Part shown: positions 1,595 through 62,981 of the stretch, in pieces
How the letters are laid out: each line of letters starts with the position of its first letter
How positions within the stretch are numbered: position 1 is the stretch's first letter
Source: a virus
DNA length: 64,000 bases
Strand: one strand, 5' to 3'
Virus record (IMG/VR): IMGVR_UViG_3300012009_000091
Span: 32,001-96,000 of that record
Program-made: the position numbers and the translations under genes
Notes under the pieces: model-generated
Database searches by the model: none
The model's input: only the letters and a program-made list of their open reading frames with translations
What the model was told of the DNA's origin: nothing

Positions 1595-2288
1595 GGCGTA
1601 ATTTCCGTCTGTCTGCGGGGCTTATACTTCTTCTCTCGCGCCCGGGGGCCGCTCCTAGTCCAGGACTGTCGGAGTCGCGAGCCATGCGTTGTCGGTTCAA
1701 GCTCTCGACGATGTCTTTGCGACCGGACACAATGGCAGAGGCGTAGTCGTAGGTAGTGTCTCCTATCAACACTCGTTCTTCTGCCTCCTCGACTCGAGGA
1801 TCTGTTTCCGCTGCTTGTTTTCGGGCCGCGTCGGTGTACTTTTTGTCTGTTGATGGGTCGATTTCTCCCTTTAGTGTCGCCAAGATCATCTTCTTGGTCT
1901 GTTTCAGGTTGGCTCTTGCGATGTCTCGATCTGCTTGGAGATCAGCCAGTTTGTCTCGATATGCCGCCAGTTCTGCATGGAAGAATTGACTTAGACCTCG
2001 AAGAGTTTCGTCATCTAGTTTGTCTGCGTTTGCTGGCGGAACGAGGGAGAGTTCTTCTTCGGGGATATTCTCACCCAGATCGCTCAGGTAGTACTTACGG
2101 CCTTCCCACTCAACCTGGATGTGGGCTTTCAAGTACTCGGGTATGTCTGGCATGGCCAATCCCCGTAGTCGTTTACTGGCCAGAAGTGCGTGGACTCGGG
2201 CCTTGAGTTCGTCTACACCCGCGCTCGCTCTTGAAATGTCGTCGGCGAGCGGCACTTGGAATCGTCGTATTTGGAAGTTGTCGCTCAC
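1584..2288 (-). CDS. Helical protein, possibly a UvsY-like recombination mediator
   Basis: Coiled-coil with TDAARKQAAETDPRV segment, inside the recombination cluster; function is inference. Confidence 0.4.
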   Translation of the reverse strand: MSDNFQIRRFQVPLADDISRASAGVDELKARVHALLASKRLRGLAMPDIPEYLKAHIQVEWEGRKYYLSDLGENIPEEELSLVPPANADKLDDETLRGLSQFFHAELAAYRDKLADLQADRDIARANLKQTKKMILATLKGEIDPSTDKKYTDAARKQAAETDPRVEEAEERVLIGDTTYDYASAIVSGRKDIVESLNRQRMARDSDSPGLGAAPGRERRSISPADRRKLRRGS

Positions 2289-3058
2289 CAGACGTCCTCC
2301 TTACAAGGTTGAGCGTACGGGCACCGGTAGCACCAGCTCCCCTCGCTCTTTTCGGGGGCTTCTCCCAGTTCATCGATCGGAGCGGTCACTCGGTTTCGGA
2401 TGCGGTCTTCGAAGTATGTCCAGCGAGCCTCCTCGAATGTAGCGACTATTGGTTCCACGTCGGCTTTCTCGAGTTCCCCCTGAATATACTCTTCAGAGAC
2501 GTAATCAGCGGGCAACATGATTTGGGTTTCGAGGTCATTCAACGCGTCCATATTGATGTACAGATACGTACAAGCTTCCCACCCGAAGCCTTTGAACAGG
2601 AACAGCCCTTGATCCAGGTGTTGCCGTGTTGGCTTTCCGGATCGTACGACGGCGTCGAACACTCGAGCAGAGGCGGTTTTGATCTCTAGTCCAAAGCGTT
2701 TGTCCAGAATGCCATCTGCGAACATCCGCAGGTACAGATCTGGAATTCGAGCTTCGGACTCGACGGACACCCTGTTGCCTCCGTAGATGTCAACTATATA
2801 GTTCTGGTACAGCTTATGGATTGCGCTGCCTGCATCCATTCGCCGACGCATAGCGGGTTCGATTTTGGGTGTCCCCGGCATACCGACTAGTTTGTATCCC
2901 AGAAACAGGTCACACCTCGGCCCCTGTTCTGTGGACAGAATGAGTGACGGCGACAGGTTAGCAGAGCCTGTATAGATCTTTTCTGCCGGTTTGTTCTTCT
3001 CAAGATGGTACTTGAGAATCTTTCGTTTGAGATCCCACGGATCTCGGATGTGTATCAT
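2285..3058 (-). CDS. Cas4-like PD-(D/E)XK exonuclease
   Basis: GSAIH, ADG...LEIKT, Q motif, one N-terminal Cys plus C-terminal CYRCPYAQPC; GGAGG and ATGA overlap at 3058. Confidence 0.8.
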   Translation of the reverse strand: MIHIRDPWDLKRKILKYHLEKNKPAEKIYTGSANLSPSLILSTEQGPRCDLFLGYKLVGMPGTPKIEPAMRRRMDAGSAIHKLYQNYIVDIYGGNRVSVESEARIPDLYLRMFADGILDKRFGLEIKTASARVFDAVVRSGKPTRQHLDQGLFLFKGFGWEACTYLYINMDALNDLETQIMLPADYVSEEYIQGELEKADVEPIVATFEEARWTYFEDRIRNRVTAPIDELGEAPEKSEGSWCYRCPYAQPCKEDVW

Positions 3059-3567
3059 TGGTCCTCCTTGTATGTGGCGACAAACCGTTCCCACGTTGTC
3101 AATAGAAGAAACCCTAAAGGGGTATCAAGCAGTAGGCTCTCCTCAGGTTCTAGGATGCGGACAAGTCCGCTATGGATACGGAAGCTTTTCCGTCCCTTGT
3201 TTAGCTGGAGGGGTACGAGATCTAGTGAAGGTTTTCCGCTGATCTCTTCCCAATCAGATGGCATGAGGACGGCTACCGGTTCTTGCCGTTCGACTGTGAT
3301 TCGGAAGACGGGGATCTTTCCTCCTTTAGCTTGTGCCCCGTCTTTCAGTTTTTGCCAATCGATTTTGGTCAAGTAGAAATGGCCCGTTCTATACTTGTCC
3401 TCTATCAGCAAGTCGTCACAGTAAACATCCCCAAACCATCCGCGTGCAGCCCCGCTATTAGGGGTAGTTTGCCCGTTTAGGTCGGCGGCTGCACGCTTCT
3501 CGGAATGGAGAGATCTACGCTTCCTCTCCTTCTGGGATTTCTTCCTCTTTTCCCACATTGAGCGCAT
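3055..3567 (-). CDS. PD-(D/E)XK nuclease, Holliday-junction-resolvase-like
   Basis: EKRAA...PNSGA...GDV...LIEDK pattern. Confidence 0.65.
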   Translation of the reverse strand: MRSMWEKRKKSQKERKRRSLHSEKRAAADLNGQTTPNSGAARGWFGDVYCDDLLIEDKYRTGHFYLTKIDWQKLKDGAQAKGGKIPVFRITVERQEPVAVLMPSDWEEISGKPSLDLVPLQLNKGRKSFRIHSGLVRILEPEESLLLDTPLGFLLLTTWERFVATYKEDQ

Positions 3568-14250: not shown

Positions 14251-14257
14251 CTTATAC
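14251..14257 (-). promoter_or_regulatory. GTATAAG motif, candidate phage-RNAP promoter for the replication operon
   Basis: 32 nt upstream of ATG 14219; the same heptamer lies upstream of other non-structural units. Confidence 0.7.
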
Positions 14258-14271: not shown

Positions 14272-14300
14272 TTGACGCCCCTGATTTCTCAGGGTAAGCT
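14272..14300 (+). promoter_or_regulatory. Sigma70-type promoter for the first virion operon
   Basis: TTGACG (14272-14277), 17-nt spacer, TAAGCT (14295-14300), then GGAGG and ATG 14326. Confidence 0.7.
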
Positions 14301-16238: not shown

Positions 16239-18236
16239 ATGTTCGGATCTTCGGCCAGTCTTTCCTCTCCGATGACCCAGCGGCATAATACACGCGGCTC
16301 TGGGCGAATCGGGATTAACTACCCGAACCCCTTCTTTGATTTGTCGCAGATTTACCTACCCCAGAACATGCGCTCGTTGTTCAAGTGGTGTAGATACTAT
16401 GCACTCACGTACGGGCCCATTTTCGCGTTTGTCACCAAGATGGCCTCGTACGCATTGACTCGGTTAGTATGGGGAAGTGATGCCCAGGCAGACCCTGAAA
16501 GGAGGGCTAATCAGAATCTAGCGACGCAGTGGAAAGATTTCTTTGAAGATACGCTGCAGATCTACAAGGCGTGTTATCGAGGTGGGCTGCATTACTGGAC
16601 GTACGGTAATTGGTACTTGTCTATTCACTATCCGTTTGATCGGTGGCTCGCCTGTCCTTCATGTAAACATGAGATGCTGGCGAGAAGATTCCCCAAGAAG
16701 GGGTATCGGTGGCATAGTTACAAGTTCCACGGTAGGTGTACAGCATGCGGATCTGATGTGACTTTCAAAGTCAAGGATGTGCCAGTCCGTTCAAGCAAAC
16801 GCATCAAGCTCAAGCTGTGGAATCCCGAACGTGTGTATCCAGTCGTCAATGAAGCGACGGACGATGTGGAATACTACTATAAGCCGACTCAACAGCTCAT
16901 CAAACGTATCGATCGAGGCGATCGGAAAGTCGTAGAAACTACGCCTTGGCCTTTTATTCAAGCGGCTAAGAAAAATAAAGACGGGTTGGTCAAGTTCAAC
17001 AATCGGAACTTCTTGCACATCTCCGCTCCATCACCCGACGGAAACGAGACGGGGATGGGGCACCCGCCGATACTAGCGGCCATCAAGGATGTGTTTCACT
17101 TACAGTTGATGAAGAGGGCACAGGAGGCTAATGCTGTAGAGCGGACTATTCCTCTTACCGTAGTGCACCCTCTCCCGATGGGAGATGATACGATCAATCC
17201 TCTTCAGTCCACGAATTTAGTCAACTTGATGGACTTCCTCAAAGATGAGGTGGCGATCGCGCGCCGAGATCCCAACTACATTCCATTTTCTCCTCTTCCT
17301 GTCGGCACGTCGCATATCTGGGGAGAAGGGAAGAATCTCCTCCTCGTCCCGGAGATTCGTGGGTGGACCGAGTTGATTGCAGCTGATCTCGCGGTGCCCA
17401 TTGAGTTTATGTTTGGCGGGATGCAATGGTCAGGGTCCAACGTCAGCTTGCGTATGCTCGAGAATCAGATCCTGACTTTCACGACTGGGTACAAGCAGGT
17501 CACTAGGTTCGTCACCAAAGCTGTGGCTAGATTCTTATGGTGGCCTGAGTGTCCGCATGACTGGACTCCGTTCAAAATGGCCGATGACATACAGCTCAAG
17601 CAGCACATGTTGATGTTGTCGCAGCTGAACAAGATTGGTGATTCTACTCTACTCTCTCACTTCGGGAAGAACCCTGTCGATGAAAAAGCCGACATCGAAG
17701 CTAGCATGAAGCAAGCGAATCGCATCGCAAAAGATCAGTTGCTTGCTCAAGCGGAGGCTCAGGTTGAGGCCATGGAGATGCAGCAGAATGCTCAGATGGA
17801 GATGCAGCAACAGCAGAGTACGGGACTTCCTACCGAAACCAGTCAGGCTGCGGCGGGAGCGCCACCTCCTGTGCAAGAGGAGGAATCACAAGAGGAGTTT
17901 GCATATCGTATGGCGGAGCAGCTTGTGAATCAGTCTGAAGATGTGATCCAGCAGACGTTACAACAGGTGTCTGCTCAGTCTCCAGAATTAGCTCAGTTCA
18001 TCTATCAGTTGATTCAACAGCTTCGCGCGGAGACGCAGCAGCCTGTGCAATATGGTCAGCAGCCTGCCCAACAGCCTGCCCAACAGCCTGCTATGGGCGG
18101 ATACAATCAAGCTCAGGTTGTTAGCGGTCCAGAAGGCCAGCTACATCAACAATATGCAGCATCGACTCGACAGATGATGCAGCCTCAACCGCAGATGCGT
18201 CCTCCACAGCGGGGACCTGCTAGTACAGCAATCTGA
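16239..18236 (+). CDS. Probable portal protein with zinc-ribbon insert and Gln-rich tail
   Basis: Portal-like layout (YGNWYL, WNPERV, GHPPIL, LAVPIEFM); CPSC/CTAC insert. Assigned from pattern and context. Confidence 0.65.
   Translation: MFGSSASLSSPMTQRHNTRGSGRIGINYPNPFFDLSQIYLPQNMRSLFKWCRYYALTYGPIFAFVTKMASYALTRLVWGSDAQADPERRANQNLATQWKDFFEDTLQIYKACYRGGLHYWTYGNWYLSIHYPFDRWLACPSCKHEMLARRFPKKGYRWHSYKFHGRCTACGSDVTFKVKDVPVRSSKRIKLKLWNPERVYPVVNEATDDVEYYYKPTQQLIKRIDRGDRKVVETTPWPFIQAAKKNKDGLVKFNNRNFLHISAPSPDGNETGMGHPPILAAIKDVFHLQLMKRAQEANAVERTIPLTVVHPLPMGDDTINPLQSTNLVNLMDFLKDEVAIARRDPNYIPFSPLPVGTSHIWGEGKNLLLVPEIRGWTELIAADLAVPIEFMFGGMQWSGSNVSLRMLENQILTFTTGYKQVTRFVTKAVARFLWWPECPHDWTPFKMADDIQLKQHMLMLSQLNKIGDSTLLSHFGKNPVDEKADIEASMKQANRIAKDQLLAQAEAQVEAMEMQQNAQMEMQQQQSTGLPTETSQAAAGAPPPVQEEESQEEFAYRMAEQLVNQSEDVIQQTLQQVSAQSPELAQFIYQLIQQLRAETQQPVQYGQQPAQQPAQQPAMGGYNQAQVVSGPEGQLHQQYAASTRQMMQPQPQMRPPQRGPASTAI
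18060..18092 (+). repeat. 12-bp tandem repeat encoding QQPA x3
   Basis: CAGCCTGCCCAA units in the portal C-terminus. Confidence 0.75.
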
Positions 18237-21200
18237 TGCAAGAGATATATAATTTCGATCAAATCAAAGAATCGGTTCAGGAGGCTCTCGGCCAGATTTT
18301 TCCTGTCGCTGGAAGAAACTTGGTTGTCGATCTCAATTCTCTTGATATACGAGATCGGAAGAATCCCGCATCGGTTCATGAGCAGTACGGAGCGTTGACG
18401 TCAGGTCGTTCGTGGACCATCCCGGTCTATGCCAACGTTACGCTTCGCGGCCCGGACGGGGAGTTGGATCGAGGACGGGTTAAAGTACTTGAACTTCCGA
18501 AACTGACCGAGAGAAATACGTTTATCGTCGATGGGAACGAACGTCAGTTGCACAGTGTGCTTCGACGGAAATCCGGAGTGTACACGCGACATGATGAAGT
18601 GGGGGACCTTGTTTCCGAGTTCAATTTGGATAACGGTCTGCATGAGGGAGGAAAGACTGACCGAGGTCGGAAGTTCGCCATACATTTCGACAACACGACC
18701 AACCAGTTCTACACACGTTTAGGTGGAAAGAAGAAAATCAATGCCTACACGCTTCTCGAGTCTCTGGGTCACGATATGGAGGGTCTCCGACAGCGCTTTG
18801 GGGATGAGATCCATTCGAAGAATCTCAAACGGACGTCGAAGAAGATCAAGCAAGATGTTTCGAAGATCTATGACACGATCTACGGATCGAAGGCCAAATC
18901 AGGATTGACTTCAGACCAGATGCGGCAACAGATCCAAGAGGCTTTCCGTAGAACGAAAGTAGATCCGGATACGACTAAAGTTACCCTTGGTACGCCAGCC
19001 GATTCCATTGACTCTAACATCCTCGTGAGAAGCATGGACAAGTTGTTGAACATCTCTCGCGGTCAGGAGAAGGAAGATGATCGTGAGAGTTTGGTGTTCA
19101 AGAAGGTCGTGTTCCCCCCGCAATTGATTGCGGAACGTGTGTCGCATCACCGCAACATCGAGCAGATTCGAGGGAAGATTCGGGCCAAGCTCAATGTCCG
19201 CGGTCGTGGTCGGAAATCACCTGAGCGAGTTGGCGAAGCTGTACCTACGCGCTTGTTGGATAAACCTTTACATGATCTCTTCGCTGAGTCGACCGAATCC
19301 GATCTGGTTGATCAACCTAACCCTGTAGGGATTGCGTCGGGCTACAATCGGATCAGCATGTTGGGTACAGGTGCAATTCGGTCTCTTGATCAGATCCCAT
19401 CAAGTGCTCCTCTGATTTCTCCGTCTCACTTAGGATATATTGATCCGCTACATACTCCAGAGTCGCATAAGGCCGGCGTGTCTGTACATCTCCCGATGAA
19501 CACCAAGATGGGAGAGGACAAACGCCTCGTTTCTCGTATGTTGACTCCGGATGGAGAGGAGAAGTGGGTAGCCGCGGAAGACGCTGCTCAAGCGGTGGTT
19601 GCTGCTCCTGATAGTTACGATATGCGTAGCGGTCGTCCTGTGCCCCGCGGTAAGACTGTTCAAGTTCAGCGAAATGGAGAGATTGAAGACGTCGATCCGA
19701 CTGAAGTAGATTACATCATCCCTCATGCGCGTGATGTGTTCGATGTTGCTACGAACTTGGTGCCTTATCTTCAGAACAACCAAGGGAATCGCGCGATGAT
19801 GGCCGGAAAACATGCTACTCAGGCGCTTCCCTTGAAATACAGAGATACTCCTCCAATTCAAACAGGAATCGAAGGAGATTTAGGCGAGACTGCCGGTGCA
19901 CGGAGGTCGCCTGTTTCAGGGCGTGTTTCTGATATCACTGAAGTGGATGGCGCGTATGAAATCCGCATCCAAGAATCAGGAAAGACCCGTCCGACCATCG
20001 TTCGTGCGTATCGCAACTATCCCATGGCGAAAGGCGTGGTGATGGATTCAGACTTGAAGGTCCAACCAGGGGACTCAGTCAAAACGGGTGATCTTCTAGC
20101 GGATTCGTCTTTCACCAAGGATGGTATGCTGTCTATGGGGACGCCTCTTCGTACAGCTTACATGCCTTGGTATGGCAGGAACTTTGAGGATGGGGTCGTC
20201 ATTTCGGATCGGGCCGCAGACCAGCTCACGTCTCTTCATCTCCATGAAAAGTCAAAGTATGAACCTGAGGCTATCAGTGATAAAACTCGGTTTCTGGATT
20301 GGTATCGGGCTCGATTTCAATCGCAAGATGAGATCAATGCTCTTGATGGAAGTGGTGTGATTCAGAAAGGGCAGACTGTCCAACCTGGTCAGATCCTGAT
20401 GGCTCGACTCAAACAGGTCGAGCGAGATAGTGAGGAAGCTAGACTTCGCAAACGGATGAAGCTAACGCCGTTTGATCCAGTCGTCATGACCTGGGATAAG
20501 GAGGTGCCGGGGACAGTCACTGATGTTCGGAAGAACCGAGACGGTACTGTCCGCGTCTTTGTGAAGACCGAAGAGAAGATGCGGGAAGGAGACAAGCTGG
20601 TCAGCCGCAATGCAAATAAAGGGATTGTGGTGAAGATCCTACCTGACGCAGAGATGCCACAAACAAAAGACGGGAAGCAAGTGGATGTTCTCTTGTCACC
20701 ATTAGGTATTCCTAGTCGCATTAATCTAGGACAAGTACTTGAGACGGCGGCGTCCAAAGTCGTAGAGAAAACAGGGAAACCGATCAATCTGTCGGATCAG
20801 ATGTTTGGCCCCAATAGCGATATTAAACATGTCCAACGATTACTGAAAGACGCTAAAATCACTGATACAGAAGAGCTGGTCGATCCTACTCGAGGGAACA
20901 AATCATTCGGGAAGGTTTTTACTGGTCCACAGTATTTCTATAAGTTGGAACATCAAGTCGCAAAGAAAGAGCGCTCTCGAGGACAAGGAAAATATGATCG
21001 ATGGGATGTGCCTGCAGGGGGAGATGGAGGCGCGCAGACCATCGGAGAGTTAGGCACGTACGCCATGTTGTCTCATGGGGCGGTTGAGAATCTACGGGAC
21101 ATGCAGCTCTACAAATCTCAGAAGAATGATGAGCTCTGGGATGCTTTGATCCACGGCCAACCTATCCCGCCTCCTAAACACATTACGCCCAATGTGCGCT

Positions 21201-24200
21201 TCGAGTCTTTATTGCGTACTGCTGGGGTGAAGTTGAAGAAAGGGGATACACTCAGTTTGATCCCACAGACCGACGAGCAGACCGAAAAGCTGGCTCGGGG
21301 ACGTCCTCCGCTGGAGGACGCCGGACGGATGTATGCGTTTCAACGAGATCGGGTTGTGGAAGAGCCTGAAGGCCTGTTTGATCCTGTCAAGACTGGTGGG
21401 TCAGAGGGAGATAGGTGGAGTTACTTTCGGCTTCCGGAACCGATTCCCAATCCAATGTTTGCTCCGGCTATTTCGTCTTTGACGGGTTGGTCTGAGTCTA
21501 CACTCAAACGGGTGGTCGAGGGTAAACAGGAATATGGGGGTTTGATCGGTGGACCGGCGGTCGCGAAGCGCCTTGAGGAGGTAGATCTGGATGCGGAAGA
21601 AGCGAAGCTTCGGGAGCAAGCCCAGAGTGTACAAGGAAGAAAACGCCTCAACATGGAGAACAAAGCCAAGGAGTTGAGTCGGATCTATCGGAGACTTCGG
21701 TATGTAACGGCTTTGAAAGGTCGGGATCTTCGTCCTGAGAAAGTGTATATGATGCAGAATGTTCCTGTTCTGCCGCCAAAGTTGCGTCCTGTTATCGCTC
21801 TTAGTAGTGGGGAGCGGTCGGCTGACGACATGAACAACCTTTATCGAGATCTTGCGCTGGTTTCGAATACTATGAAGGAGAGTCAAGAGCGGGGGGTCTC
21901 TCCTAAGCACCTGCAGCCTTTGCGTGGCGCCTTGTATGATGGCCTCTCTGCTTTGATCTCTGCTAAGAGTGGGGATCGCCCGTTGAGTGGGGCATACAGA
22001 GGGGTCATTGGTTCTATCTCCGGTAAACGCCCTGTAGAGGAGGGAAAAGGCGAAGTAGGGCAGGCCAAAGGCGGATTATTTCAAGATCAAATCACGCGTC
22101 GTCGACAGGATTTCTCAGCTCGGACGACGATCACGGTTGAACCTCGACTCGAGATTGATCAGATTGGTATGCCCTTCAAAATGGCGTACGAGATTTATTC
22201 TCCGTGGGCACAAAAGCGGTTGCGGGAAAAGTATGGGTACGCTACTCGAGACGCGCGTAAGTACTATGAAGAGAAGGGCCCTGATGATCCGCGTGTACGG
22301 GACGTTCTCTCTGATGCGGTAGCCGAGCGGCCTTCACTTGTCAAACGGGATCCCGCTTTGCACAAATTCAACGTGATGGCTTTCAATCCAGTTCTGGTGG
22401 AAGGCAGTGCATTACAAATCCACCCGTTGGTGACCGGAGGATTCAATGCGGACTTTGATGGCGATACGATGTCCGTATACGTGCCTGTGAAAGAGGAGGC
22501 GGTTGAAGAGTCTTATAAGATGTTGCCTTCTAACAACATCTACAATCCGACAAACGGCAAGTTGATGTACGCCCCGAGTCAAGAAATGGTTTGGGGCTTA
22601 CACAGTCTCACTAGCGTAGGAAAGAAGACCAATTGGAAGTTTGGATCTCGCAAAGCAGCGGAAAGCGCGTTGAATCGTGGGGATGTTCACCAAACAGATC
22701 GCATCAAAATAGGCACGCGTGAGACAACTTTAGGGTGGGAAAAAATCAACGACATTCTCCCCGGCCGGTTTCGTTTCAAAGGGTCTTTGGACAATCGAAA
22801 GCCACTTGACAAGCATCGAATTTCTGACTTGTTGAGTAAGGTCGCTGCAAAGGAACCTGAAACATTCGCCCCACTGGTAAACACTCTCAAGGATGTCGGT
22901 AATCAAAACGCTACAGAAGATGCGTCGTCTTTTTCTCTGAAAGACTTTGATGTGGTAGGTCAGGAGTTCCGAGATCGCACTTTTCGGGAAGCCGAAGAAA
23001 AGGCATCTCGAAGTAAAGATCCACTTGGCGTGCTGTCTGATGCGCTCAAGAAAGTTGATCGACACACTCTTGAAGTGCTGAGTTCGCAAAAGAAGCCGAA
23101 TGCGATCTTTCAAATCGTCACGTCGGGATCGAAGGCCAGTTGGCCTCAGCTCAAGCAAATTGTCAGTGCTCCTGCATTGGTGTACGACACTCAAAATCGA
23201 ATTGTCCCGCGATTGATCAAAAAGTCGTACAGTGAAGGTTTACCGTTGATGGATTATTGGACGGGTCTCCACGGAGCCCGAAAAGGGGCTATCAATAAGT
23301 CCATCTCGACGTCCCGTCCCGGATATCTTGGGAAACAGGTGATGCGGTCTGTGATTGATCAGGTTGTTGTGGAAGATGATTGCGGAACGCGACAAGGTCG
23401 ATCGATGTCGCCGGATGATCCAGAAGCGGTTAATCGGTATTTGGCGTCCGGTATTCGAGTTCAGGGCGGGAAGCGAGATCGGAATTTCAATCGTAATTCG
23501 GTGGTAACGCCGAACATAGTGTCCTCTCTTCGTGCCCACAAGACCCCTTCGATACATGTACGATCTCCCATGCGATGCGAAAGTACGGACGGTGTGTGCG
23601 CTAAGTGTATGGGGTTGGACGAGGAAGGACGGGATTATGCCGTTGGAACGAATGTCGGTGTTCAGGCCGCTCAAGGAGTAGGGGAGCCGTCGACGCAGTT
23701 GTCATTGAATGTATTTCATACCGGTGGGGTGGTAGAGGATCCCAATATTCCTGTTGAGAGCGATCGTCTGCAGCGTGCTGAACACTTGTTGCGGCTTACT
23801 CAACGAATCCCCAATAGTGCTGTGCTCTCTCCGAGATCTGGAAAGATCGAAGGAGTACGAGAAGCTCCTCAGGGAGGACATGAGGTTAAGATCGATGGAA
23901 AAGAGATCTACATTCCCCATGAGAAGAAGTTGTTCGGCAGTATCAAACCGGGTCAGGAGATAGGCAAAGGCGATCCGATGACAGCGGGGCCCATCCATCC
24001 GCTCGAGGTATTGAAGTACAAAGGTACGTATGCCGCGCAGGATACTCTCGCGGATCAATTGTACGACCTCTATAAGGGTGCTCGTGGCACCAAGAAGAAA
24101 CACTTTGAGGTGATCGTACGAGGGATGTCCAAGAACACACAGGTATTGGATCCAAAGGACTCTGAGTGGGAGTCTGGACAAGTGACGTCATTGACGAAAG

Positions 24201-24478
24201 TTAAGAAACATAATCGAGAAGCAGGGAAAGACCAGCGGGTCAAACATCTGCCTATCATGCGTGGAATTGGGACGTCTCCCCTGTTGTCTGAAGATTGGAT
24301 AGCTCGGCTCAATGGAGAGCGACTTCGGAGTACTATCGTAGGGGCGGCCACTCAAGGTTGGGAATCTCAGGCGCACAGTACTCACCCTATCCCCGCGATG
24401 ACTTTTTTGAATGAAGAAGAGCTGTCGGAAGAGTCAGGCTTTGGGCGGCCTATCCAACCGATACGATCTCCGTATTAG
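18236..24478 (+). CDS. rpoBC: Single-chain two-barrel DNA-directed RNA polymerase (beta-beta' fusion)
   Basis: Beta motifs TFIVDGNER, IDPLHTPES, GNRAMM, YGRNFED, GDKLVSRNANKG, PLGIPSRINLGQ, YKLEH, GAQTIGE; then beta' motifs VLPPKLRP, RRQDFSAR, RDPALH, NADFDGD, HGARKG, GEPSTQLSLNVFH, KHFEVIVR. Confidence 0.97.
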   Translation: MQEIYNFDQIKESVQEALGQIFPVAGRNLVVDLNSLDIRDRKNPASVHEQYGALTSGRSWTIPVYANVTLRGPDGELDRGRVKVLELPKLTERNTFIVDGNERQLHSVLRRKSGVYTRHDEVGDLVSEFNLDNGLHEGGKTDRGRKFAIHFDNTTNQFYTRLGGKKKINAYTLLESLGHDMEGLRQRFGDEIHSKNLKRTSKKIKQDVSKIYDTIYGSKAKSGLTSDQMRQQIQEAFRRTKVDPDTTKVTLGTPADSIDSNILVRSMDKLLNISRGQEKEDDRESLVFKKVVFPPQLIAERVSHHRNIEQIRGKIRAKLNVRGRGRKSPERVGEAVPTRLLDKPLHDLFAESTESDLVDQPNPVGIASGYNRISMLGTGAIRSLDQIPSSAPLISPSHLGYIDPLHTPESHKAGVSVHLPMNTKMGEDKRLVSRMLTPDGEEKWVAAEDAAQAVVAAPDSYDMRSGRPVPRGKTVQVQRNGEIEDVDPTEVDYIIPHARDVFDVATNLVPYLQNNQGNRAMMAGKHATQALPLKYRDTPPIQTGIEGDLGETAGARRSPVSGRVSDITEVDGAYEIRIQESGKTRPTIVRAYRNYPMAKGVVMDSDLKVQPGDSVKTGDLLADSSFTKDGMLSMGTPLRTAYMPWYGRNFEDGVVISDRAADQLTSLHLHEKSKYEPEAISDKTRFLDWYRARFQSQDEINALDGSGVIQKGQTVQPGQILMARLKQVERDSEEARLRKRMKLTPFDPVVMTWDKEVPGTVTDVRKNRDGTVRVFVKTEEKMREGDKLVSRNANKGIVVKILPDAEMPQTKDGKQVDVLLSPLGIPSRINLGQVLETAASKVVEKTGKPINLSDQMFGPNSDIKHVQRLLKDAKITDTEELVDPTRGNKSFGKVFTGPQYFYKLEHQVAKKERSRGQGKYDRWDVPAGGDGGAQTIGELGTYAMLSHGAVENLRDMQLYKSQKNDELWDALIHGQPIPPPKHITPNVRFESLLRTAGVKLKKGDTLSLIPQTDEQTEKLARGRPPLEDAGRMYAFQRDRVVEEPEGLFDPVKTGGSEGDRWSYFRLPEPIPNPMFAPAISSLTGWSESTLKRVVEGKQEYGGLIGGPAVAKRLEEVDLDAEEAKLREQAQSVQGRKRLNMENKAKELSRIYRRLRYVTALKGRDLRPEKVYMMQNVPVLPPKLRPVIALSSGERSADDMNNLYRDLALVSNTMKESQERGVSPKHLQPLRGALYDGLSALISAKSGDRPLSGAYRGVIGSISGKRPVEEGKGEVGQAKGGLFQDQITRRRQDFSARTTITVEPRLEIDQIGMPFKMAYEIYSPWAQKRLREKYGYATRDARKYYEEKGPDDPRVRDVLSDAVAERPSLVKRDPALHKFNVMAFNPVLVEGSALQIHPLVTGGFNADFDGDTMSVYVPVKEEAVEESYKMLPSNNIYNPTNGKLMYAPSQEMVWGLHSLTSVGKKTNWKFGSRKAAESALNRGDVHQTDRIKIGTRETTLGWEKINDILPGRFRFKGSLDNRKPLDKHRISDLLSKVAAKEPETFAPLVNTLKDVGNQNATEDASSFSLKDFDVVGQEFRDRTFREAEEKASRSKDPLGVLSDALKKVDRHTLEVLSSQKKPNAIFQIVTSGSKASWPQLKQIVSAPALVYDTQNRIVPRLIKKSYSEGLPLMDYWTGLHGARKGAINKSISTSRPGYLGKQVMRSVIDQVVVEDDCGTRQGRSMSPDDPEAVNRYLASGIRVQGGKRDRNFNRNSVVTPNIVSSLRAHKTPSIHVRSPMRCESTDGVCAKCMGLDEEGRDYAVGTNVGVQAAQGVGEPSTQLSLNVFHTGGVVEDPNIPVESDRLQRAEHLLRLTQRIPNSAVLSPRSGKIEGVREAPQGGHEVKIDGKEIYIPHEKKLFGSIKPGQEIGKGDPMTAGPIHPLEVLKYKGTYAAQDTLADQLYDLYKGARGTKKKHFEVIVRGMSKNTQVLDPKDSEWESGQVTSLTKVKKHNREAGKDQRVKHLPIMRGIGTSPLLSEDWIARLNGERLRSTIVGAATQGWESQAHSTHPIPAMTFLNEEELSEESGFGRPIQPIRSPY

Positions 24479-35409: not shown

Positions 35410-35416
35410 CTTATAC
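35410..35416 (-). promoter_or_regulatory. GTATAAG motif
   Basis: 25 nt upstream of ATG 35385; CTCCGTATAAG is shared with the 14251 site. Confidence 0.7.
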
Positions 35417-37736: not shown

Positions 37737-37743
37737 CTTATAC
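37737..37743 (-). promoter_or_regulatory. GTATAAG motif
   Basis: 27 nt upstream of ATG 37710. Confidence 0.7.
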
Positions 37744-57280: not shown

Positions 57281-57293
57281 TTGGAGAGGTAAC

Positions 57294-58276: not shown

Positions 58277-58283
58277 CTTATAC
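58277..58283 (-). promoter_or_regulatory. GTATAAG motif overlapping the upstream stop codon
   Basis: 32 nt upstream of ATG 58245. Confidence 0.6.
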
Positions 58284-58760: not shown

Positions 58761-58798
58761 TTCTATTCTCCTTTGTATTAGATGCGGACCGTCTTTGA

Positions 58799-58805
58799 CT
58801 TATAC
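58799..58805 (-). promoter_or_regulatory. GTATAAG motif
   Basis: 39 nt upstream of ATG 58760. Confidence 0.7.
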
Positions 58806-58810
58806 TAAGA

Positions 58811-58831: not shown

Positions 58832-58838
58832 CCTACGG

Positions 58839-58947: not shown

Positions 58948-58954
58948 CTTATAC
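58948..58954 (-). promoter_or_regulatory. GTATAAG motif (TGGTATAAGTAGG)
   Basis: 13-nt identity with the 59139 site. Confidence 0.65.
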
Positions 58955-58970
58955 CATAGTAGCTAACACG

Positions 58971-59138: not shown

Positions 59139-59145
59139 CTTATAC
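59139..59145 (-). promoter_or_regulatory. GTATAAG motif (TGGTATAAGTAGG)
   Basis: Intergenic; heads candidate ncRNA A. Confidence 0.65.
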
Positions 59146-59160
59146 CACGGTGAGATGTGT

Positions 59161-59397
59161 TCAAAGTTTGTCAATTAGAATCCGTGTCAAGACCCACCCG
59201 CGCCAGCTGGCATCGTGGGATGTCTCGATGTTCTCATCCCACCCTATATTGATCTCTTCATGGCATCGAGGGCAGGTAATCACCGTTGAATGTCCTGGTT
59301 CTTTCCCAAATCCCCAATGGTCGTGGAAGGATTGCATGCACGAAGGACATGTGAACTCGTCTGTCGGATAGGAGATTGTCACATGTTTATGCATCAA
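59161..59397 (-). CDS. Small zinc-ribbon protein
   Basis: FTCPSC...ITCPRC. Confidence 0.65.
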   Translation of the reverse strand: MMHKHVTISYPTDEFTCPSCMQSFHDHWGFGKEPGHSTVITCPRCHEEINIGWDENIETSHDASWRGWVLTRILIDKL

Positions 59398-59725
59398 TCC
59401 CCGCGGAGAAGTCTTCGGCTTCTTCTTCGGTCTGTTGCATCTCTTGGATCACTTGTTCTTCATCTTTTTTCGCGGGCGGAGGTGGAGAATTTTTGACCAT
59501 CTCATAGAATACCATGAGCGCATTCCGAATGATGTGACTCTCGTTTCGTGCATTGGTGTTTGCTAACAGTTCACACAGAGCTTGATGTTCCATCTCGTTC
59601 AACGTAATTGTCATTGAGTAGGGATGTTGTCCTCGCTGCTTTTTCTTCTTCATCTCTTGTCGTCGACGTTTGAGTTTTCTCTTCGCGCCAGGTGGAGGGG
59701 CAGTGTGGGTGTTGTTCTCTGTCAT
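59387..59725 (-). CDS. Ribbon-helix-helix-like DNA-binding protein
   Basis: YSMTITLNEMEHQALCELL...NESHIIRNAL; AAGGAG RBS. Confidence 0.6.
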   Translation of the reverse strand: MTENNTHTAPPPGAKRKLKRRRQEMKKKKQRGQHPYSMTITLNEMEHQALCELLANTNARNESHIIRNALMVFYEMVKNSPPPPAKKDEEQVIQEMQQTEEEAEDFSAGIDA

Positions 59726-59823
59726 TGATCTACTCTCCTTCTTTGTGGTGTGGAGGGGCGGTAAAGGATAGACGTGTCTTACCTTTCACTTCTTATCCCT
59801 CTTACTCCAACGTCACCTTGACT

Positions 59824-60117
59824 TCACTTCTTAGCTCGTAGATTGTCATTCACTTCCGGCGGAGGGCCAGATACCATCTGTGGCCACCCTCCGGTTTTGA
59901 TGTACCAGTAGATGAGATTGCGAACAATTACCTCGGGCGCGATCTTCTCTCTCAATTCGATCCCTAAATCCTTCGCTTCTTTGTTCAGTCGGTGGGCATG
60001 TGAACGTAGTGCCCTCTCCCAACGGTGGGGAATGGGGACCTGTAAATCGAGTGTAAAAACCTCTTCAGTGTGTCTGATCGGCCCCAATAGTATGATATCT
60101 TCCGCTGAGTTCCTCAT
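59824..60117 (-). CDS. Small protein, possibly RHH-like
   Basis: LDLQVPIPHRWERAL...PEVIVRNLIYWYI. Confidence 0.45.
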   Translation of the reverse strand: MRNSAEDIILLGPIRHTEEVFTLDLQVPIPHRWERALRSHAHRLNKEAKDLGIELREKIAPEVIVRNLIYWYIKTGGWPQMVSGPPPEVNDNLRAKK

Positions 60118-60131
60118 GAGTGTAAGATACT

Positions 60132-60228
60132 CTTACAGTGAGCTTTACACAAGTCTGGAAAGTTCGCTTTGCGCCTAATTGAGATGCTTTTACAGGTAAT
60201 TTTACACAGAGGTTTACACCACAGTTTA
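60132..60228. repeat. (C/T)TTACA direct repeats with 12-bp period
   Basis: Copies at 60132, 60144 and 60189, 60201, 60213, (60225 partial); inverted TGTAAG at 60121. Confidence 0.7.
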
Positions 60229-60231
60229 TGT

Positions 60232-60238
60232 GTATAAG
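60232..60238 (+). promoter_or_regulatory. GTATAAG motif
   Basis: Heads the rightward accessory operon at a strand switch. Confidence 0.65.
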
Positions 60239-60334
60239 GCGGATGTTGAACGCCGGCTTGTGTTGCCTGCTTGGCAGCCGGATCCCCGGCGTTCTTCTTT
60301 ATCATGTAGACCAGTAAATCAAAGGAGAACATTG

Positions 60335-60748
60335 ATGGATGCAAGTACGACATTGGCCGTTACAGCTACGTTTGTACCCCCTGAGCGGGTACTGTCCCTT
60401 TTCCGAGCGGACGGGGTGGTGGTTCTTCATGGACTTTATATTGTCTCGCACGGAGGCAAGGCCAGAGGACCAGTGCAGTTGACTGTGGGAGATACGGAAA
60501 TCCTCTCTTCATCACAAGATCATCGGTGGGGTAATCATGAGCAGGTCAATGCCTGCTCTCCCGTACTGGTGTTAGATCAAGCTGAGATTATTTTCCGTAC
60601 GGAGTCTAGCACGTTGACCAGTACCACTTTCACCGTTCTCGCGTTGTACTCCCCGACGTCCGCGAAAGCGCGGCTGGTTAGGGTACCGCTTGAACCCACC
60701 AGACCTAAGCCTGATCCAGAGAAGGCAAGACGATTGCTTAGTCGCTAA
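60335..60748 (+). CDS. Hypothetical protein
   Basis: AAGGAG before MDASTTL. Confidence 0.6.
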   Translation: MDASTTLAVTATFVPPERVLSLFRADGVVVLHGLYIVSHGGKARGPVQLTVGDTEILSSSQDHRWGNHEQVNACSPVLVLDQAEIIFRTESSTLTSTTFTVLALYSPTSAKARLVRVPLEPTRPKPDPEKARRLLSR

Positions 60749-60778
60749 CCTCACGTCAACACAGAGAGAGATAGAACG

Positions 60779-61162
60779 ATGAAAATATCAATCGAGAGCG
60801 CAGAGAAGATCTTTATCGATGCGGGGTTCAAGAAAGACCATTGTGAGCATCTGGATTGTGAAGCCAGTTTCTACAGACGGGAGGAAACGGATGCTCCTAA
60901 ATGTCTGTGCAACGATCGGATTCCTGTTGTAGGAGTCGAACTATATGACATTCCCCATGGGAATTCCAATTACAGGTCTATTGCATTCGGTCTCACTGGA
61001 AAGGCCCCTTGTGGGTGGGTGCAGATCCGTGTCTACGGATTCGATCTCGATGACCAGGTCCTTGAACAGTACGAAAGATCGTCGTCGGCTCTTTTGGAAT
61101 CTTGGACTGCCTTGTTCCAACAGGCCGAAGGAGCAGACAACGATTGTAGAACTACGGAATAG
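60779..61162 (+). CDS. Hypothetical protein
   Basis: ORF in operon; CLCND motif. Confidence 0.6.
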   Translation: MKISIESAEKIFIDAGFKKDHCEHLDCEASFYRREETDAPKCLCNDRIPVVGVELYDIPHGNSNYRSIAFGLTGKAPCGWVQIRVYGFDLDDQVLEQYERSSSALLESWTALFQQAEGADNDCRTTE

Positions 61163-61180
61163 GACTGAGGACGGGAAAAT

Positions 61181-61456
61181 ATGCGTTGTGATTGTTCAGT
61201 GGATGTAGTCGAAGAGCCAACTCTCTATCGAGAGACGTGGCCTCGTGCTCGAAGACTTTATATGTGTTGTGAGTGTGGGGATAAGATCCACACGGGAGAA
61301 CAGTATCAGTGTACTACGGGTCTATGGGAAGATGAGTGGGCTACGTACCGTACTTGTATGCTGTGTGCGAAGATCCGAACTGACTATTGTGCTTGGGGGT
61401 GGGAATATGGACAGCTTGCTGAAGCACTCTGGGAATGCCTGGAGGTGGAGCTGTGA
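61181..61456 (+). CDS. Small Cys-rich zinc-binding protein
   Basis: RARRLYMCCECG..IHTGEQY...TCMLC. Confidence 0.7.
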   Translation: MRCDCSVDVVEEPTLYRETWPRARRLYMCCECGDKIHTGEQYQCTTGLWEDEWATYRTCMLCAKIRTDYCAWGWEYGQLAEALWECLEVEL

Positions 61457-61857
61457 TAAAGCTAGAAGAGTGTGACCGATTCATACATGCCGCAGGGGAT
61501 TTGGCACGTTCCATCGCACACATTAACCCGTTTGGGGGACAACCTGTAGGGGTGTTTGAAAAGCTCCCCGAAGAGACCCGAGCGTTAAATCTTCTGTGTG
61601 GAACTTCTACCGCCACATCTTACATTCGTCTGGGCTGTAGGATCAAAGACAGGTCCTTGCTTAATGAAGAGGAGCAAGAGACGGCGATCCTTACATTGGA
61701 TTTGGCTCCGGAGAATGAAAATCAGGGTATCTACCCGCCGTTCAGTCTTCCCTCTCAAGCAACTCAGCAAGCTGATCTCGTCGAGGAAGATCTTGGCGGG
61801 AGATATCGGATTCTGTTTGTGACGAATGCTCAGGCAATAGTCTGTACTATTCTTTAG
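61453..61857 (+). CDS. Hypothetical protein
   Basis: GGAGG RBS, GTGA overlap. Confidence 0.6.
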   Translation: MIKLEECDRFIHAAGDLARSIAHINPFGGQPVGVFEKLPEETRALNLLCGTSTATSYIRLGCRIKDRSLLNEEEQETAILTLDLAPENENQGIYPPFSLPSQATQQADLVEEDLGGRYRILFVTNAQAIVCTIL

Positions 61858-61867
61858 GAGGGCGAAT

Positions 61868-62935
61868 ATGGACGATCTCGTAGAACCAAGTGTGAAAGAT
61901 TTGATGACAGTTCTCGTCGACTTTGAGTTCGACGGTAAGAAATTGTTCATCTTCGAATATAAAGGACGGAAGTGTTGTCTCGCTCAGAATCTTGGAGAGG
62001 TTTTGGGATACGGCGAGAAGTCTCTGCCCCGGCGGTTGCTCGAGTGGGGTGATGAACTTGAACTCGGTGAGGATGTGGAAACCCTTACAGGAGAGGATTT
62101 GGCCACATTGAAGCAACTGGTAGCGGTATTCGCTACCGGTGGTTTTCTCGGTGCTAGAGCTGCTCAAGCACAGATCCTATACCGAGGCGGAATTCATCTA
62201 GTGCTGATGAAGACGAACAAACCGATCGGGAAGATGGTCCGGGAGGTTCTCAAGAAGGAGATCTTCCCAAAGCTCGAGGATGGGTATTCCATCGCTCAGA
62301 TCGGAACAGATGCTCAGACTGGATGTACAGATGAAATCTTCCGTGAATGGATTGGTGATCTCAAGATGACCAAGACTCTCCCGCAAGAAGTCTATGAAAG
62401 GCTGTTGATGTCTCTACATGCCGCCCGTCTCAACGCGGCTACGGGTGTGGAGATCGCCAACCATCCCATTCAAACATTGCTCTTTTCTCAAGAGGATGTG
62501 GAAAAGCCCGTTGCACGGCTTCATGATCATCAACGGAAACCCAATCCGGATCAGTGGCGGAGTGTTGGGGATATTGCCCGACGTTACGGCTATAAGGGGG
62601 CTGAGCTCATCCGAAGGATTCTTCAGGACGTCGGTCTTTACCAGGATCGAAGAGGTAAATGGATTGAGCTTGCAGGTGTTTCGTATCTGGATATGAACGA
62701 AGAACATGACCAACCATATCTTCGCTATCATCCAGGAGTAGTGTACGTAGTTCTGCTGGAGATCTGGAGGCGAAGTCGAAAGGACAAGCGGATGGATCAG
62801 GATATTCGGCGGAAACTCGAGTCAGGGAACACTACAATGTGGCCTATGACCACCGATGATTTCGTGAGGTGGGAAAAGAGCGTTCGAGTACAATTGCCCA
62901 AGAAGTTTCTTGAGGCAATCAAGGAGGAGATCTAG
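61868..62935 (+). CDS. Bro-N domain DNA-binding (antirepressor-like) protein
   Basis: FEFDG...LAQNLGEVLGY...LYRGGIHLVLMKTNKPIGK...EIFPKL. Confidence 0.75.
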   Translation: MDDLVEPSVKDLMTVLVDFEFDGKKLFIFEYKGRKCCLAQNLGEVLGYGEKSLPRRLLEWGDELELGEDVETLTGEDLATLKQLVAVFATGGFLGARAAQAQILYRGGIHLVLMKTNKPIGKMVREVLKKEIFPKLEDGYSIAQIGTDAQTGCTDEIFREWIGDLKMTKTLPQEVYERLLMSLHAARLNAATGVEIANHPIQTLLFSQEDVEKPVARLHDHQRKPNPDQWRSVGDIARRYGYKGAELIRRILQDVGLYQDRRGKWIELAGVSYLDMNEEHDQPYLRYHPGVVYVVLLEIWRRSRKDKRMDQDIRRKLESGNTTMWPMTTDDFVRWEKSVRVQLPKKFLEAIKEEI

Positions 62936-62974
62936 ATTTGCAGAGCAGCCGTTCCTCGCGTCTGCTCTTAGTGT

Positions 62975-62981
62975 GTATAAG
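62975..62981 (+). promoter_or_regulatory. GTATAAG motif upstream of thyX
   Basis: Follows hairpin AGAGCAG/CTGCTCT (62942-62968); about 35-45 nt before the possible thyX starts. Confidence 0.7.

What the first reader, a model, noticed from the sequence alone, without database searches (positions are those of the whole stretch)
1621..62981. GTATAAG marks non-structural transcription units: candidate promoter of the phage RNAP
Seen: ten copies found by eye (minus strand 1621, 14251, 35410, 37737, 58277, 58799, 58948, 59139; plus strand 60232, 62975). All are co-oriented with the downstream unit, seven lie about 25-45 nt before a start codon, and none heads a structural gene. I see no shared -35 element. 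The last base breaks the highly conserved T of the sigma70 -10 box. The raw count alone is not far above chance for a 7-mer; position and orientation are the evidence. The TAAG core recalls baculovirus late promoters, which may be coincidence.
Basis: partly seen in the sequence, partly recalled or inferred. Interest (0 to 1): 0.8.

Follow-up and report, generated by a model that had tools for sequence, protein, structure and literature searches.

The report
Phage early-gene promoter motif GTATAAG
GTATAAG is a real, sharply defined promoter-like signal in front of the non-structural genes of a 167-kb phage; distant relatives share its TATAAG core, and it is most likely read by the phage's own bacterial-type RNA polymerase together with a phage-encoded sigma factor.

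Summary
The window holds exactly the ten GTATAAG copies listed, against 2.5 expected. The complete 167-kb phage genome holds 32. It is the most over-represented 7-mer (z 9.1). 26 of 32 copies lie in the 13% non-coding DNA, 28 of 32 point at the next gene, and none lies in the three structural blocks. Every one-mismatch variant is at background, including GTATAAT. There is no -35 element. A pyrimidine-purine step 5-6 nt after the motif fits a -10 geometry.

The TATAAG core recurs in distant relatives:
- Salmonella phage Arash uses tGGTATAAG-N5-TGTA: 40 copies, 36 on the strand of non-structural genes.
- Vibrio phage D69 uses GTTATAAG: 13 of 13 copies on one strand.
- Three lineages with RNAP 58-61% identical keep GTATAAG at the same divergent junction.

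The genome encodes one fused beta-beta' RNAP of 2080 aa and one sigma70-family protein, an Arash gp10 homologue. In Arash both proteins were found in virions.

Best reading (about 0.6): a -10-like promoter of early or middle genes, read by the phage RNAP with this sigma. No transcript 5' ends or biochemistry exist, so the polymerase assignment is inferred.

I found no earlier description of this motif.

The parts
1621..1627 (-). GTATAAG copy inside the 3' end of ORF 1584-2288 (-), 26 nt before the GTG of the RusA-like gene 1022-1594 (-). Candidate internal promoter of the replication operon.
14251..14257 (-). GTATAAG copy heading the minus-strand replication operon (14219 down to about 1), 31 nt before the ATG at 14219. 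Conserved as TCCGTATAAGT in relatives L004/L005 and as CCGTATAAG in L012.
35410..35416 (-). GTATAAG copy 24 nt before the ATG of a 138-aa unknown gene (34969-35385, -). It lies at the divergent junction with the large terminase gene.
37737..37743 (-). GTATAAG copy 26 nt before the ATG of a 211-aa unknown gene (37075-37710, -).
58277..58283 (-). GTATAAG copy overlapping the stop codon of gene 58278-58760 (-), 31 nt before the ATG of a 58-aa ORF (58069-58245, -).
58799..58805 (-). GTATAAG copy 38 nt before the ATG of a 160-aa unknown gene (58278-58760, -). A strong G+C hairpin sits directly upstream.
58948..58954 (-). GTATAAG copy with no convincing ORF within 180 nt. It may drive a leader or a small RNA, or act as a tandem promoter.
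59139..59145 (-). GTATAAG copy (TGGTATAAG) 23 nt before a doubtful 50-aa GTG ORF. TTGACA-like repeats lie upstream.
60232..60238 (+). GTATAAG copy heading the plus-strand non-structural block. The first ORF with a Shine-Dalgarno sequence starts 93 nt downstream (60335-60748). Three TTTACA repeats lie upstream.
62975..62981 (+). GTATAAG copy 45 nt before the ATG of the ThyX-domain gene, which starts at 63027 and runs past the window end. A hairpin sits directly upstream.
18236..24478 (+). Single-chain fused beta-beta' multisubunit-type RNA polymerase, 2080 aa. The proposed catalytic reader of the motif. It lies in a structural operon directly after the portal gene.
16239..18236 (+). Portal protein gene (homologue of the Arash gp204 portal). 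It gives the context that places the RNAP in a late, structural operon.
14272..14300 (+). TTGACG-N17-TAAGCT, back to back with the 14251 motif. Both hexamers are conserved in L004/L005 and L012 while the spacer has diverged. Candidate promoter, of a different class, for the portal/RNAP structural operon.

Best explanation
GTATAAG is the core of the promoter class that drives the non-structural genes of this phage. These are the early or middle genes: replication, nucleotide metabolism and many small unknowns.

It works as a -10-like element. TATAAG occupies positions -12 to -7, with an obligatory G at -13 and no -35 element. Transcription starts about 6 nt downstream, at a pyrimidine-purine step.

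It would consist of the single-chain beta-beta' RNAP (window 18236-24478) and the phage's one sigma70-family factor. That factor is encoded at genome 9459-10178, outside the window, and is a homologue of Arash gp10. In Arash both proteins are in the virion, so the enzyme would be injected and would start transcription without the host polymerase. The invariant G at the position where sigma70 needs T would keep these promoters away from the host enzyme.

Shown here:
- the motif statistics, positions and orientation
- conservation in relatives
- the sigma and RNAP identities

Inferred:
- the transcription start point
- which enzyme reads the motif
- virion packaging in this particular phage
- the timing class of the genes
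For: Motif statistics:
- 10 copies in the window against 2.5 expected.
- 32 in the genome, the top 7-mer, z 9.1.
- 26 of 32 in non-coding DNA, p 4e-18.
- 28 of 32 co-oriented with the next gene.
- 18 of 32 have a Shine-Dalgarno sequence and start codon within 60 nt, against 4.9 for random positions.
- None lies in the structural blocks.

Sharpness: all one-mismatch variants are at background and GTATAAT is never intergenic. A host sigma70 should like GTATAAT at least as well.

Geometry: no -35 element. At position +11 from the motif's first G, 21 of 28 sites have a pyrimidine. At +12, 25 of 28 have a purine.

No sign of reliance on the host enzyme: the bipartite sigma70 consensus is not enriched in intergenic DNA, 18 hits against 17.5 +/- 4.6 in shuffles.

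Conservation in relatives:
- Arash has 40 copies against 14 for the control, 36 of them on the strand of non-structural genes, mostly 25-45 nt before annotated starts. Its consensus is tGGTATAAG-N5-TGTA.
- D69 has 13 copies of TTATAAGWAA, all on one strand, against a control of 1.
- The orthologous junction keeps the motif in L004/L005 and L012, whose RNAPs are 58-61% identical.

Sigma factor:
- Pfam Sigma70_r3 above the curated cut-off.
- The family profile matches SigA, RpoS and RpoD with E 2e-22 over regions 2-4.
- The predicted structure has pLDDT 87.8 and three sigma domains.
- Foldseek top hits are all sigma factors.
- In the alignment to E. coli RpoD, T429, Y430, T432, W434, the R451-I452-P453 triplet and E458 are kept.
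- Homologues are present in Arash, D69 and G001.
- The second sigma type (Arash gp196 / D69_0246) and the late motif CTAAAATA occur together in Arash and D69, and both are absent here. That leaves the gp10-type sigma as the factor that travels with TATAAG.

Virion data: in Arash the RNAP beta and beta' subunits and gp10 were detected in virions by mass spectrometry (PMC10585845).

Complex model: sigma region 2 docks on RNAP residues 1200-1232.
- Score 0.68, best of 3 controls 0.01.
- That mark was reached by 58 of 80 solved complexes and 2 of 110 mismatched pairs.
- The runs agree in at least 28% of contacts.
- Partner pLDDT is at least 69.
- This is the canonical sigma / clamp-helix interface, so the pass may only reflect likeness to solved holoenzymes.
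Against: - No transcript 5' ends or in vitro data exist for this phage or any relative, so neither the start point nor the reading enzyme is shown.
- The sigma has a region-4-like domain, yet the motif has no -35 partner.
- A bipartite TTGACG-N17-TAAGCT element, conserved in relatives, heads the portal/RNAP operon. The single phage sigma might read that element instead.
- Arash's TGGTATAAG matches the extended -10 consensus of host sigma70 at 8 of 9 positions, so some use by the host enzyme cannot be excluded.
- Region 3.0 of the sigma is not conserved between this lineage and Arash or D69, although the TATAAG core is the same. No clean protein-DNA covariation was found.
- The phylogenetic profile rests on only three lineages.
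- The Arash authors note that abundant enzymes might contaminate virion preparations.
Confidence: 0.6

Rival explanations
1. The motif is a -10 element read by the host RNA polymerase with its primary sigma factor, as an extended -10 promoter that needs no -35. The phage RNAP would then serve other genes.
For: TATAAG matches TATAAT at 5 of 6 positions. Arash sites read TGGTATAAG, which is 8 of 9 of the extended -10 consensus. The implied spacing to the start site fits sigma70 geometry. Most phages use the host enzyme for early genes (general knowledge).
Against: - The last base is invariably G at 32 of 32 sites here, and also in Arash and D69. Yet T at -7 is one of the best conserved sigma70 contacts (established knowledge).
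- GTATAAT occurs once in the genome and never in intergenic DNA.
- The TG dinucleotide is not conserved here.
- Such sharpness, with no tolerated variants, is unlike host-type promoters.
- Canonical sigma70 promoters are not enriched.
- The same core is kept in phages of Salmonella, Vibrio and an unknown host, along with a conserved phage sigma.
Confidence: 0.14
2. The phage sigma-like protein reads GTATAAG but redirects the host core polymerase, as T4 gp55 and SPO1 gp28 do. The phage RNAP would use another signal.
For: The protein is a full sigma70-family member. Phage sigmas that capture host core polymerase are the textbook case, and Iyer et al. (2021) assign that strategy to sigma-bearing jumbo phages without an RNAP of their own (PMC7824862).
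Against: - This phage has its own bacterial-type core enzyme. In Arash that enzyme and the sigma are both found in the virion.
- The model docks the sigma on the phage enzyme's clamp helices, score 0.68 against 0.01 for the best control. This does not exclude the host enzyme as well.
Confidence: 0.1
3. The phage RNAP reads the motif without the sigma. Recognition would come from another phage factor or from the motif acting as an initiator, as in phiKZ/AR9-type promoters or the baculovirus TAAG late promoter. The sigma would instead serve the bipartite TTGACG-N17-TAAGCT class.
For: - The sigma has a region-4-like domain and the bipartite element is conserved in three lineages.
- Known phage multisubunit RNAPs work without sigma homologues (PMC7598289 abstract; PMC7824862).
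- The TAAG core resembles the baculovirus late promoter, which is read by a viral multisubunit enzyme (general knowledge).
Against: - The motif has the exact shape of a sigma70-family -10 element, with T at -12, A at -11 and a start signal 5-6 nt downstream.
- The sigma keeps the Y430 and W434 equivalents used for -10 melting.
- The bipartite class is not enriched genome-wide: two exact sites, and a relaxed scan gives 16 against 14 in shuffles.
- Arash and D69 lack the bipartite element at their late genes and use CTAAAATA, yet they keep both TATAAG and the gp10-type sigma.
Confidence: 0.1
4. The motif is not a promoter. It would be an operator for a phage DNA-binding protein, an RNA processing site, or another punctuation signal placed between genes.
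For: Position between genes and strict sequence identity would also suit a protein-binding site or an RNase site. About a quarter of the copies follow a hairpin directly.
Against: - The motif is asymmetric and strictly co-oriented with downstream genes.
- It sits at a fixed short distance before Shine-Dalgarno sequences and start codons.
- It heads divergent operons where transcription must start, at 14251, 35410 and 60232.
- A start-site-like signal lies downstream.
- The shortest Arash spacing, 16 nt to the ATG, still leaves the Shine-Dalgarno sequence inside a transcript that starts about 6 nt after the motif.
Confidence: 0.05

Closest known systems
Extended -10 promoters of bacterial sigma70 (TGnTATAAT)
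   Same: A single -10-region element suffices without a -35. It shares the TATAA core, with T at -12 and A at -11. The start is about 6-7 nt downstream.
   Different: - The last base is invariably G instead of the conserved T.
- G at -13 is obligatory here, whereas TG at -15/-14 is conserved only in Arash.
- There is no tolerated degeneracy.
- The presumed reader is a phage sigma on a phage core enzyme.
T4 late promoters (TATAAATA) read by gp55
   Same: A short A+T-rich -10-type element with no -35, read by a divergent phage sigma. It is specific to the phage genome.
   Different: T4 uses the host core enzyme, and also gp33 and the sliding clamp. T4 late promoters head late genes, whereas this motif heads non-structural genes. 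The closer analogue of the T4 late promoter in this clade is the CTAAAATA motif of Arash and D69, which this phage lacks.
Early promoters of phiKZ / AR9-type jumbo phages read by virion multisubunit RNAPs
   Same: A phage-encoded enzyme related to cellular beta/beta', packaged in the virion, transcribes early genes from phage-specific short motifs independently of the host enzyme.
   Different: Those enzymes are split into several polypeptides and have no sigma homologue (PMC7824862). Here the core is one fused chain that gives clear Pfam beta and beta' domain hits, and a true sigma70-family factor is present.
Baculovirus late promoter (A/G/T)TAAG
   Same: A TAAG core and a virus-encoded multisubunit RNA polymerase.
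   Different: In baculoviruses TAAG is the initiator, with the start inside the motif, and it belongs to a eukaryotic virus with no sigma. Here the start-site signal lies after the motif. The resemblance is most likely coincidental.

Membership tests
sigma70-type -10 promoter element | Hexamer with T at -12, A at -11 and T at -7 on the non-template strand | tested here: not met
   T and A are invariant at the first two positions. The last position is G in 32 of 32 copies, and GTATAAT is never intergenic. The motif works like a -10 element but is not a canonical sigma70 hexamer.
sigma70-type -10 promoter element | Transcription start about 6-8 nt downstream of the hexamer | tested here: inconclusive
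   There is only an indirect signal. A pyrimidine-purine step lies 5-6 nt after the motif here, and TGTA lies at the equivalent place in Arash and D69. No transcript 5' ends are available.
Extended -10 promoter class | TG at -15/-14 and no need for a -35 element | tested here: inconclusive
   No -35 element is present. TG is not conserved here: position -1 relative to the motif's G is mixed. In Arash the base before the motif is G in 20 of 20 sites and the one before that is T in 11 of 20.
Phage-specific promoter of a phage-encoded transcription enzyme | One sharply conserved sequence repeated before a gene class, co-oriented with it and excluded from other classes | tested here: met
   There are no copies in the structural blocks.
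Phage-specific promoter of a phage-encoded transcription enzyme | Initiation at the motif by the phage enzyme and not by the host enzyme | not testable with these tools
   This needs 5'-end mapping with rifampicin, or in vitro transcription.
sigma70 protein family (the proposed reader, genome 9459-10178) | Domains sigma2, sigma3 and sigma4, with region 2.3-2.4 and 3.0 motifs | tested here: met
   - Pfam Sigma70_r3 at 27.6 bits against a cut-off of 25.3.
- 42 of 46 family members match r3 and 12 of 46 match r4.
- The profile matches SigA, RpoS and RpoD with E 2e-22 over positions 36-230.
- The fold model has three helical domains.
- Foldseek hits are sigma factors.
- The Y430, W434 and E458 equivalents are kept.
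- The Pfam region 2 model itself does not fire.
Multisubunit (beta/beta') RNA polymerase (window 18236-24478) | Rpb2 domain 6 together with Rpb1 domains 1-5 | tested here: met
   Pfam hits: RNA_pol_Rpb2_6 at 2.8e-51, Rpb1_2 at 1.1e-24, Rpb1_5 at 2.4e-24 and Rpb1_1 at 1.2e-10, all in one 2080-aa chain.
Virion-packaged RNAP system (as in Arash) | RNAP and sigma physically present in virions | not testable with these tools
   This is known only for Arash, by mass spectrometry (PMC10585845). Here only the synteny is seen: the RNAP follows the portal gene and the sigma lies in a structural operon.

The most novel reading that the evidence does not exclude
This phage clade includes Arash of Salmonella, D69 of Vibrio and uncultured relatives. 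It may carry a self-contained bacterial-type transcription system: a beta-beta' core, fused here into a single chain, plus its own sigma70-family factor, both delivered in the virion. The factor's -10 code would be TATAAG, with G where every cellular sigma70 wants T. The phage promoters and the host enzyme would then be mutually blind. That would be a natural orthogonal sigma/promoter/core set.
Probability: 0.5. Interest if true: 0.75.

Novelty: new variant of a known kind. Interest (0 to 1): 0.65.

Why it matters
Known phage multisubunit RNAPs of the phiKZ and AR9 type work without a sigma homologue. Known phage sigmas borrow the host core enzyme.

A phage with both its own core and its own sigma, and a simple promoter that can be read off the genome, would be a third arrangement. 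It gives a directly testable case of how a sigma factor changes its -10 code, from T to G at -7.

The motif also gives an immediate transcription map for Arash-like phages. One of these, Arash, was isolated as a candidate alternative to antibiotics. It also offers a compact orthogonal expression module for synthetic biology.

Tried and rejected
- **Near-identical relatives.** A megablast search of the phage collection found none.
- **Second sigma.** I searched with Pfam Sigma70_r2 and r4, phmmer with Arash gp196 and D69_0246, and my own profiles. All came back empty. The weak r4 hit at genome 104880 is an XRE-type HTH protein.
- **CTAAAATA as a late promoter here.** Rejected. In this genome CTAAAA words are the tails of terminator hairpins, and there are no copies before structural operons.
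- **Bipartite TTGACG-N17-TAAGCT as a general late class.** Not enriched genome-wide, 16 against 14 in shuffles.
- **Terminator hairpin upstream as a constant feature.** Only about a quarter of the sites have one, and the mean z is -0.4.
- **Mobile repeat or adapter artefact.** The flanks are unrelated, so neither applies. GTATAAG does occur in the Nextera adapter, which is why the literature search for the word returned only primer lists.
- **tRNA and Rfam scans of the window.** Both empty.
- **Relatives of the DNA polymerase in viral contigs.** None found.
- **Protein-DNA covariation.** I compared sigma region 3.0 with the base before TATAAG across lineages. No clean pattern emerged.
Full report
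**Observation.** Dinucleotide shuffles give 2.5 +/- 1.5, and none of 100 shuffles reached ten. The window is bases 32001-96000 of a complete 167,069-bp IMG/VR virus record with terminal repeats and 52% G+C.

Genome-wide there are 32 copies. Against a third-order Markov model GTATAAG is the most over-represented 7-mer, 32 against 7.4, z 9.1. I used a home-made gene map, since no gene caller was at hand. On that map 26 of 32 copies lie in the 13% of the genome that is non-coding (p 4e-18). GTATAAG is the commonest 7-mer there, ahead of ribosome-binding-site words.

Three of the six copies that count as genic overlap the stop codon of the upstream gene. Only one copy, at genome 152988, is clearly antisense inside a gene.

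- 28 of 32 copies point at the next gene, p 2e-5. In the window it is 10 of 10.
- 18 of 32 have a Shine-Dalgarno sequence, a start codon and an ORF within 60 nt. Random positions give 4.9, and the same sites read backwards give 4.
- All 21 single-mismatch variants are at background. GTATAAT occurs once and never between genes.

**What the motif heads.** No copy lies in the three plus-strand structural blocks: genome 1-31674, window 14326-34678 and window 38478-57701. These blocks hold the portal, RNAP and terminase-side genes, identified through Arash homologues.

- The copy at 14251 heads a minus-strand replication operon: SF2 helicase, UDG-family protein, DnaB-like helicase, primase, family A DNA polymerase and a RecA-like ATPase.
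- The copy at 1621 lies inside that operon, before a RusA-like gene.
- The copy at 62975 precedes a ThyX-domain gene.
- The remaining copies precede small unknown genes.

**Anatomy.** Aligning the sites shows no conserved -35 region and no conserved flanks, so this is not a repeat element. Five to six bases after the motif there is a pyrimidine (21 of 28 sites) followed by a purine (25 of 28). That is the usual look of a start site placed as it would be after a -10 hexamer. Read this way, TATAAG occupies -12 to -7 and the leading G is -13. The canonical bipartite sigma70 consensus is not enriched in intergenic DNA (18 against 17.5 +/- 4.6; window 57000-64000: 3 against 5.4).

**Relatives.** The RNAP has no close relative among deposited phages. 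It is 26-30% identical to proteins of Vibrio phage D69 and Salmonella phage Arash.

- *Arash.* It carries 40 GTATAAG copies against 14 for the control pattern. 36 are on the strand that encodes its non-structural genes. Most lie 25-45 nt before annotated starts, and one lies 13 nt before a tRNA. Its consensus is longer, tGGTATAAG-wAAnG-TGTA. G precedes the motif in 20 of 20 good sites, and TGTA sits where the start signal lies here.
- *D69.* It does not enrich GTATAAG. It uses GTTATAAG followed by the same (T)GTA. TTATAAGWAA occurs 13 times, all on one strand, against a control of 1.
- *Closer relatives.* Three lineages with RNAPs 58-61% identical (L004/L005 and L012) keep CCGTATAAG at the same divergent junction, about 4 kb upstream of the RNAP. 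The surrounding intergenic DNA has diverged.

So TATAAG, with G in the last place, is a clade-wide signal in phages of different hosts.

**The likely reader.** Window 18236-24478 encodes one 2080-aa chain with Rpb2 domain 6 and Rpb1 domains 1, 2, 3 and 5. It is a fused beta-beta' enzyme and sits directly after the portal gene.

Outside the window, at genome 9459-10178 in a structural operon, lies a 239-aa homologue of Arash gp10. It is a true sigma70-family protein:

- Pfam Sigma70_r3 above the cut-off.
- 605 relatives in an exhaustive search, many full-length at about 240 aa.
- Family members match r3 (42 of 46) and r4 (12 of 46).
- The family profile matches SigA, RpoS and RpoD with E 2e-22 over regions 2 to 4.
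- A confident model (pLDDT 87.8) shows three helical domains and a disordered linker where the sigma finger would be.
- Foldseek returns only sigma factors.

In the alignment to E. coli RpoD 426-501 it keeps T429, Y430, T432, W434, R451-I452-P453 and E458. It changes W433 to N, Q437 to R, T440 to A and H455 to G. So the apparatus for a -10-type recognition is there, but with altered base-contact residues.

Homologues of this sigma lie at the same place in Arash, D69 and G001. In Arash, mass spectrometry found the RNAP beta and beta' proteins and gp10 in virions. The beta subunit had the highest spectral count of all (PMC10585845).

A complex model places sigma residues 20-29 and 54-70 on RNAP residues 1200-1232.
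- The score is 0.68 and the best of three controls is 0.01.
- That mark was reached by 58 of 80 solved complexes and 2 of 110 mismatched pairs.
- The runs agree in at least 28% of contacts, and the partner's pLDDT is at least 69.

This is the canonical region-2 / clamp-helix interface. The pass may therefore reflect likeness to solved holoenzymes rather than anything specific to this pair.

**A phylogenetic profile.** Arash and D69 have a second sigma, gp196 / D69_0246, which are orthologues at 42% identity with a Sigma70_r2 hit only. They also have a second motif, CTAAAATA, before plus-strand structural genes. It resembles the T4 late promoter.

This genome has neither. The factor that travels with TATAAG in all three lineages is therefore the gp10-type sigma. 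This rests on three lineages only.

**Model.** The virion delivers the RNAP and its sigma. The holoenzyme recognises G-TATAAG as a -10-type element without a -35, melts the DNA at the conserved A at -11, and starts about 6 nt downstream. This would drive the non-structural genes without the host enzyme. G at -7 keeps the host sigma70 off these promoters.

The motif statistics, the conservation and the protein identities are shown. The start point, the reading enzyme, packaging in this particular phage and the timing class are inferred.

**Problems for the model.**
- The sigma has a region-4-like domain with no -35 to bind at these sites.
- A bipartite element, TTGACG-N17-TAAGCTGG, lies back to back with the 14251 motif. 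Both hexamers are conserved in three lineages while the spacer has diverged. A similar TTGACA-N18-TACGAT precedes the structural operon at 38478.
- That class is not enriched genome-wide, and its reader is unknown. It could be the same sigma.
- Arash's TGGTATAAG is close enough to an extended -10 that some host use cannot be excluded.
- I found no covariation between sigma region 3.0 and the base before TATAAG.

**Comparison with what is known.** The motif works like an extended -10 promoter, or like a T4 late promoter read by a divergent sigma. It fails the defining T at -7 of canonical sigma70 hexamers.

The system resembles phiKZ and AR9 virion RNAPs in being host-independent, but it differs in having a real sigma. 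A survey of jumbo phages found RNAP-bearing groups without sigma and sigma-bearing groups without RNAP (PMC7824862).

The Arash paper contains no promoter analysis: the word "promoter" occurs zero times. My literature searches found no description of this motif. I rate it a new variant of a known kind.

Noticed in passing
window 14272-14300 (+): TTGACG-N17-TAAGCT(GG) lies back to back with the 14251 motif. Both hexamers are identical in relatives L004/L005 and L012 while the 17-nt spacer is unrelated. This is a footprint of a bipartite promoter for the portal/RNAP structural operon. Its reader is unknown.
   Followed up: partly
window 38429-38458 (+): TTGACA-N18-TACGAT lies 20 nt before the start of the structural operon at 38478. 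It is the only other exact site of the bipartite kind in intergenic DNA that heads a structural block. The class is not enriched genome-wide.
   Followed up: partly
L001 (Arash) and L006 (D69), before plus-strand structural genes: CTAAAATA lies about 30-40 nt before the starts of the portal, beta', endolysin and other plus-strand genes in Arash and D69. It often abuts the reverse complement of the TATAAG motif. It is a candidate late promoter and co-occurs with a second, region-2-only sigma (Arash gp196 / D69_0246). Both are absent from this genome.
   Followed up: partly
window 58948-59200 (-) and 60170-60335 (+): Two motif copies (58948, 59139) have no convincing ORF downstream, and the copy at 60232 has a 93-nt leader. 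The divergent region between them carries repeated TTGACA / TTGAAC and TTTACA words. Possible small RNAs, leaders or a regulatory region. tRNA and Rfam scans were empty.
   Followed up: partly
window 58806-58835 (-) and 62940-62967 (+); also genome 96560-96600, 109190-109220, 115720-115790: About a quarter of the motif copies follow directly after a strong G+C hairpin, giving terminator-then-promoter cassettes. Elsewhere in the genome terminator hairpins end in TTTTAG, for example the bidirectional pair at genome 133400-133450.
   Followed up: partly
genome 133529, 139560 and 139880 (-), outside the window: Three motif copies point into a stretch with few confident ORFs, genome 133-140 kb. Another first-stage note flagged that stretch as rich in structured RNA. 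They may drive non-coding transcripts.
   Followed up: no
window 11630-12382 (-) and 63027 onward (+): The motif-driven units encode a UDG-superfamily protein in the replication operon and a ThyX-domain protein. Both may bear on the phage's DNA base composition or modification.
   Followed up: no
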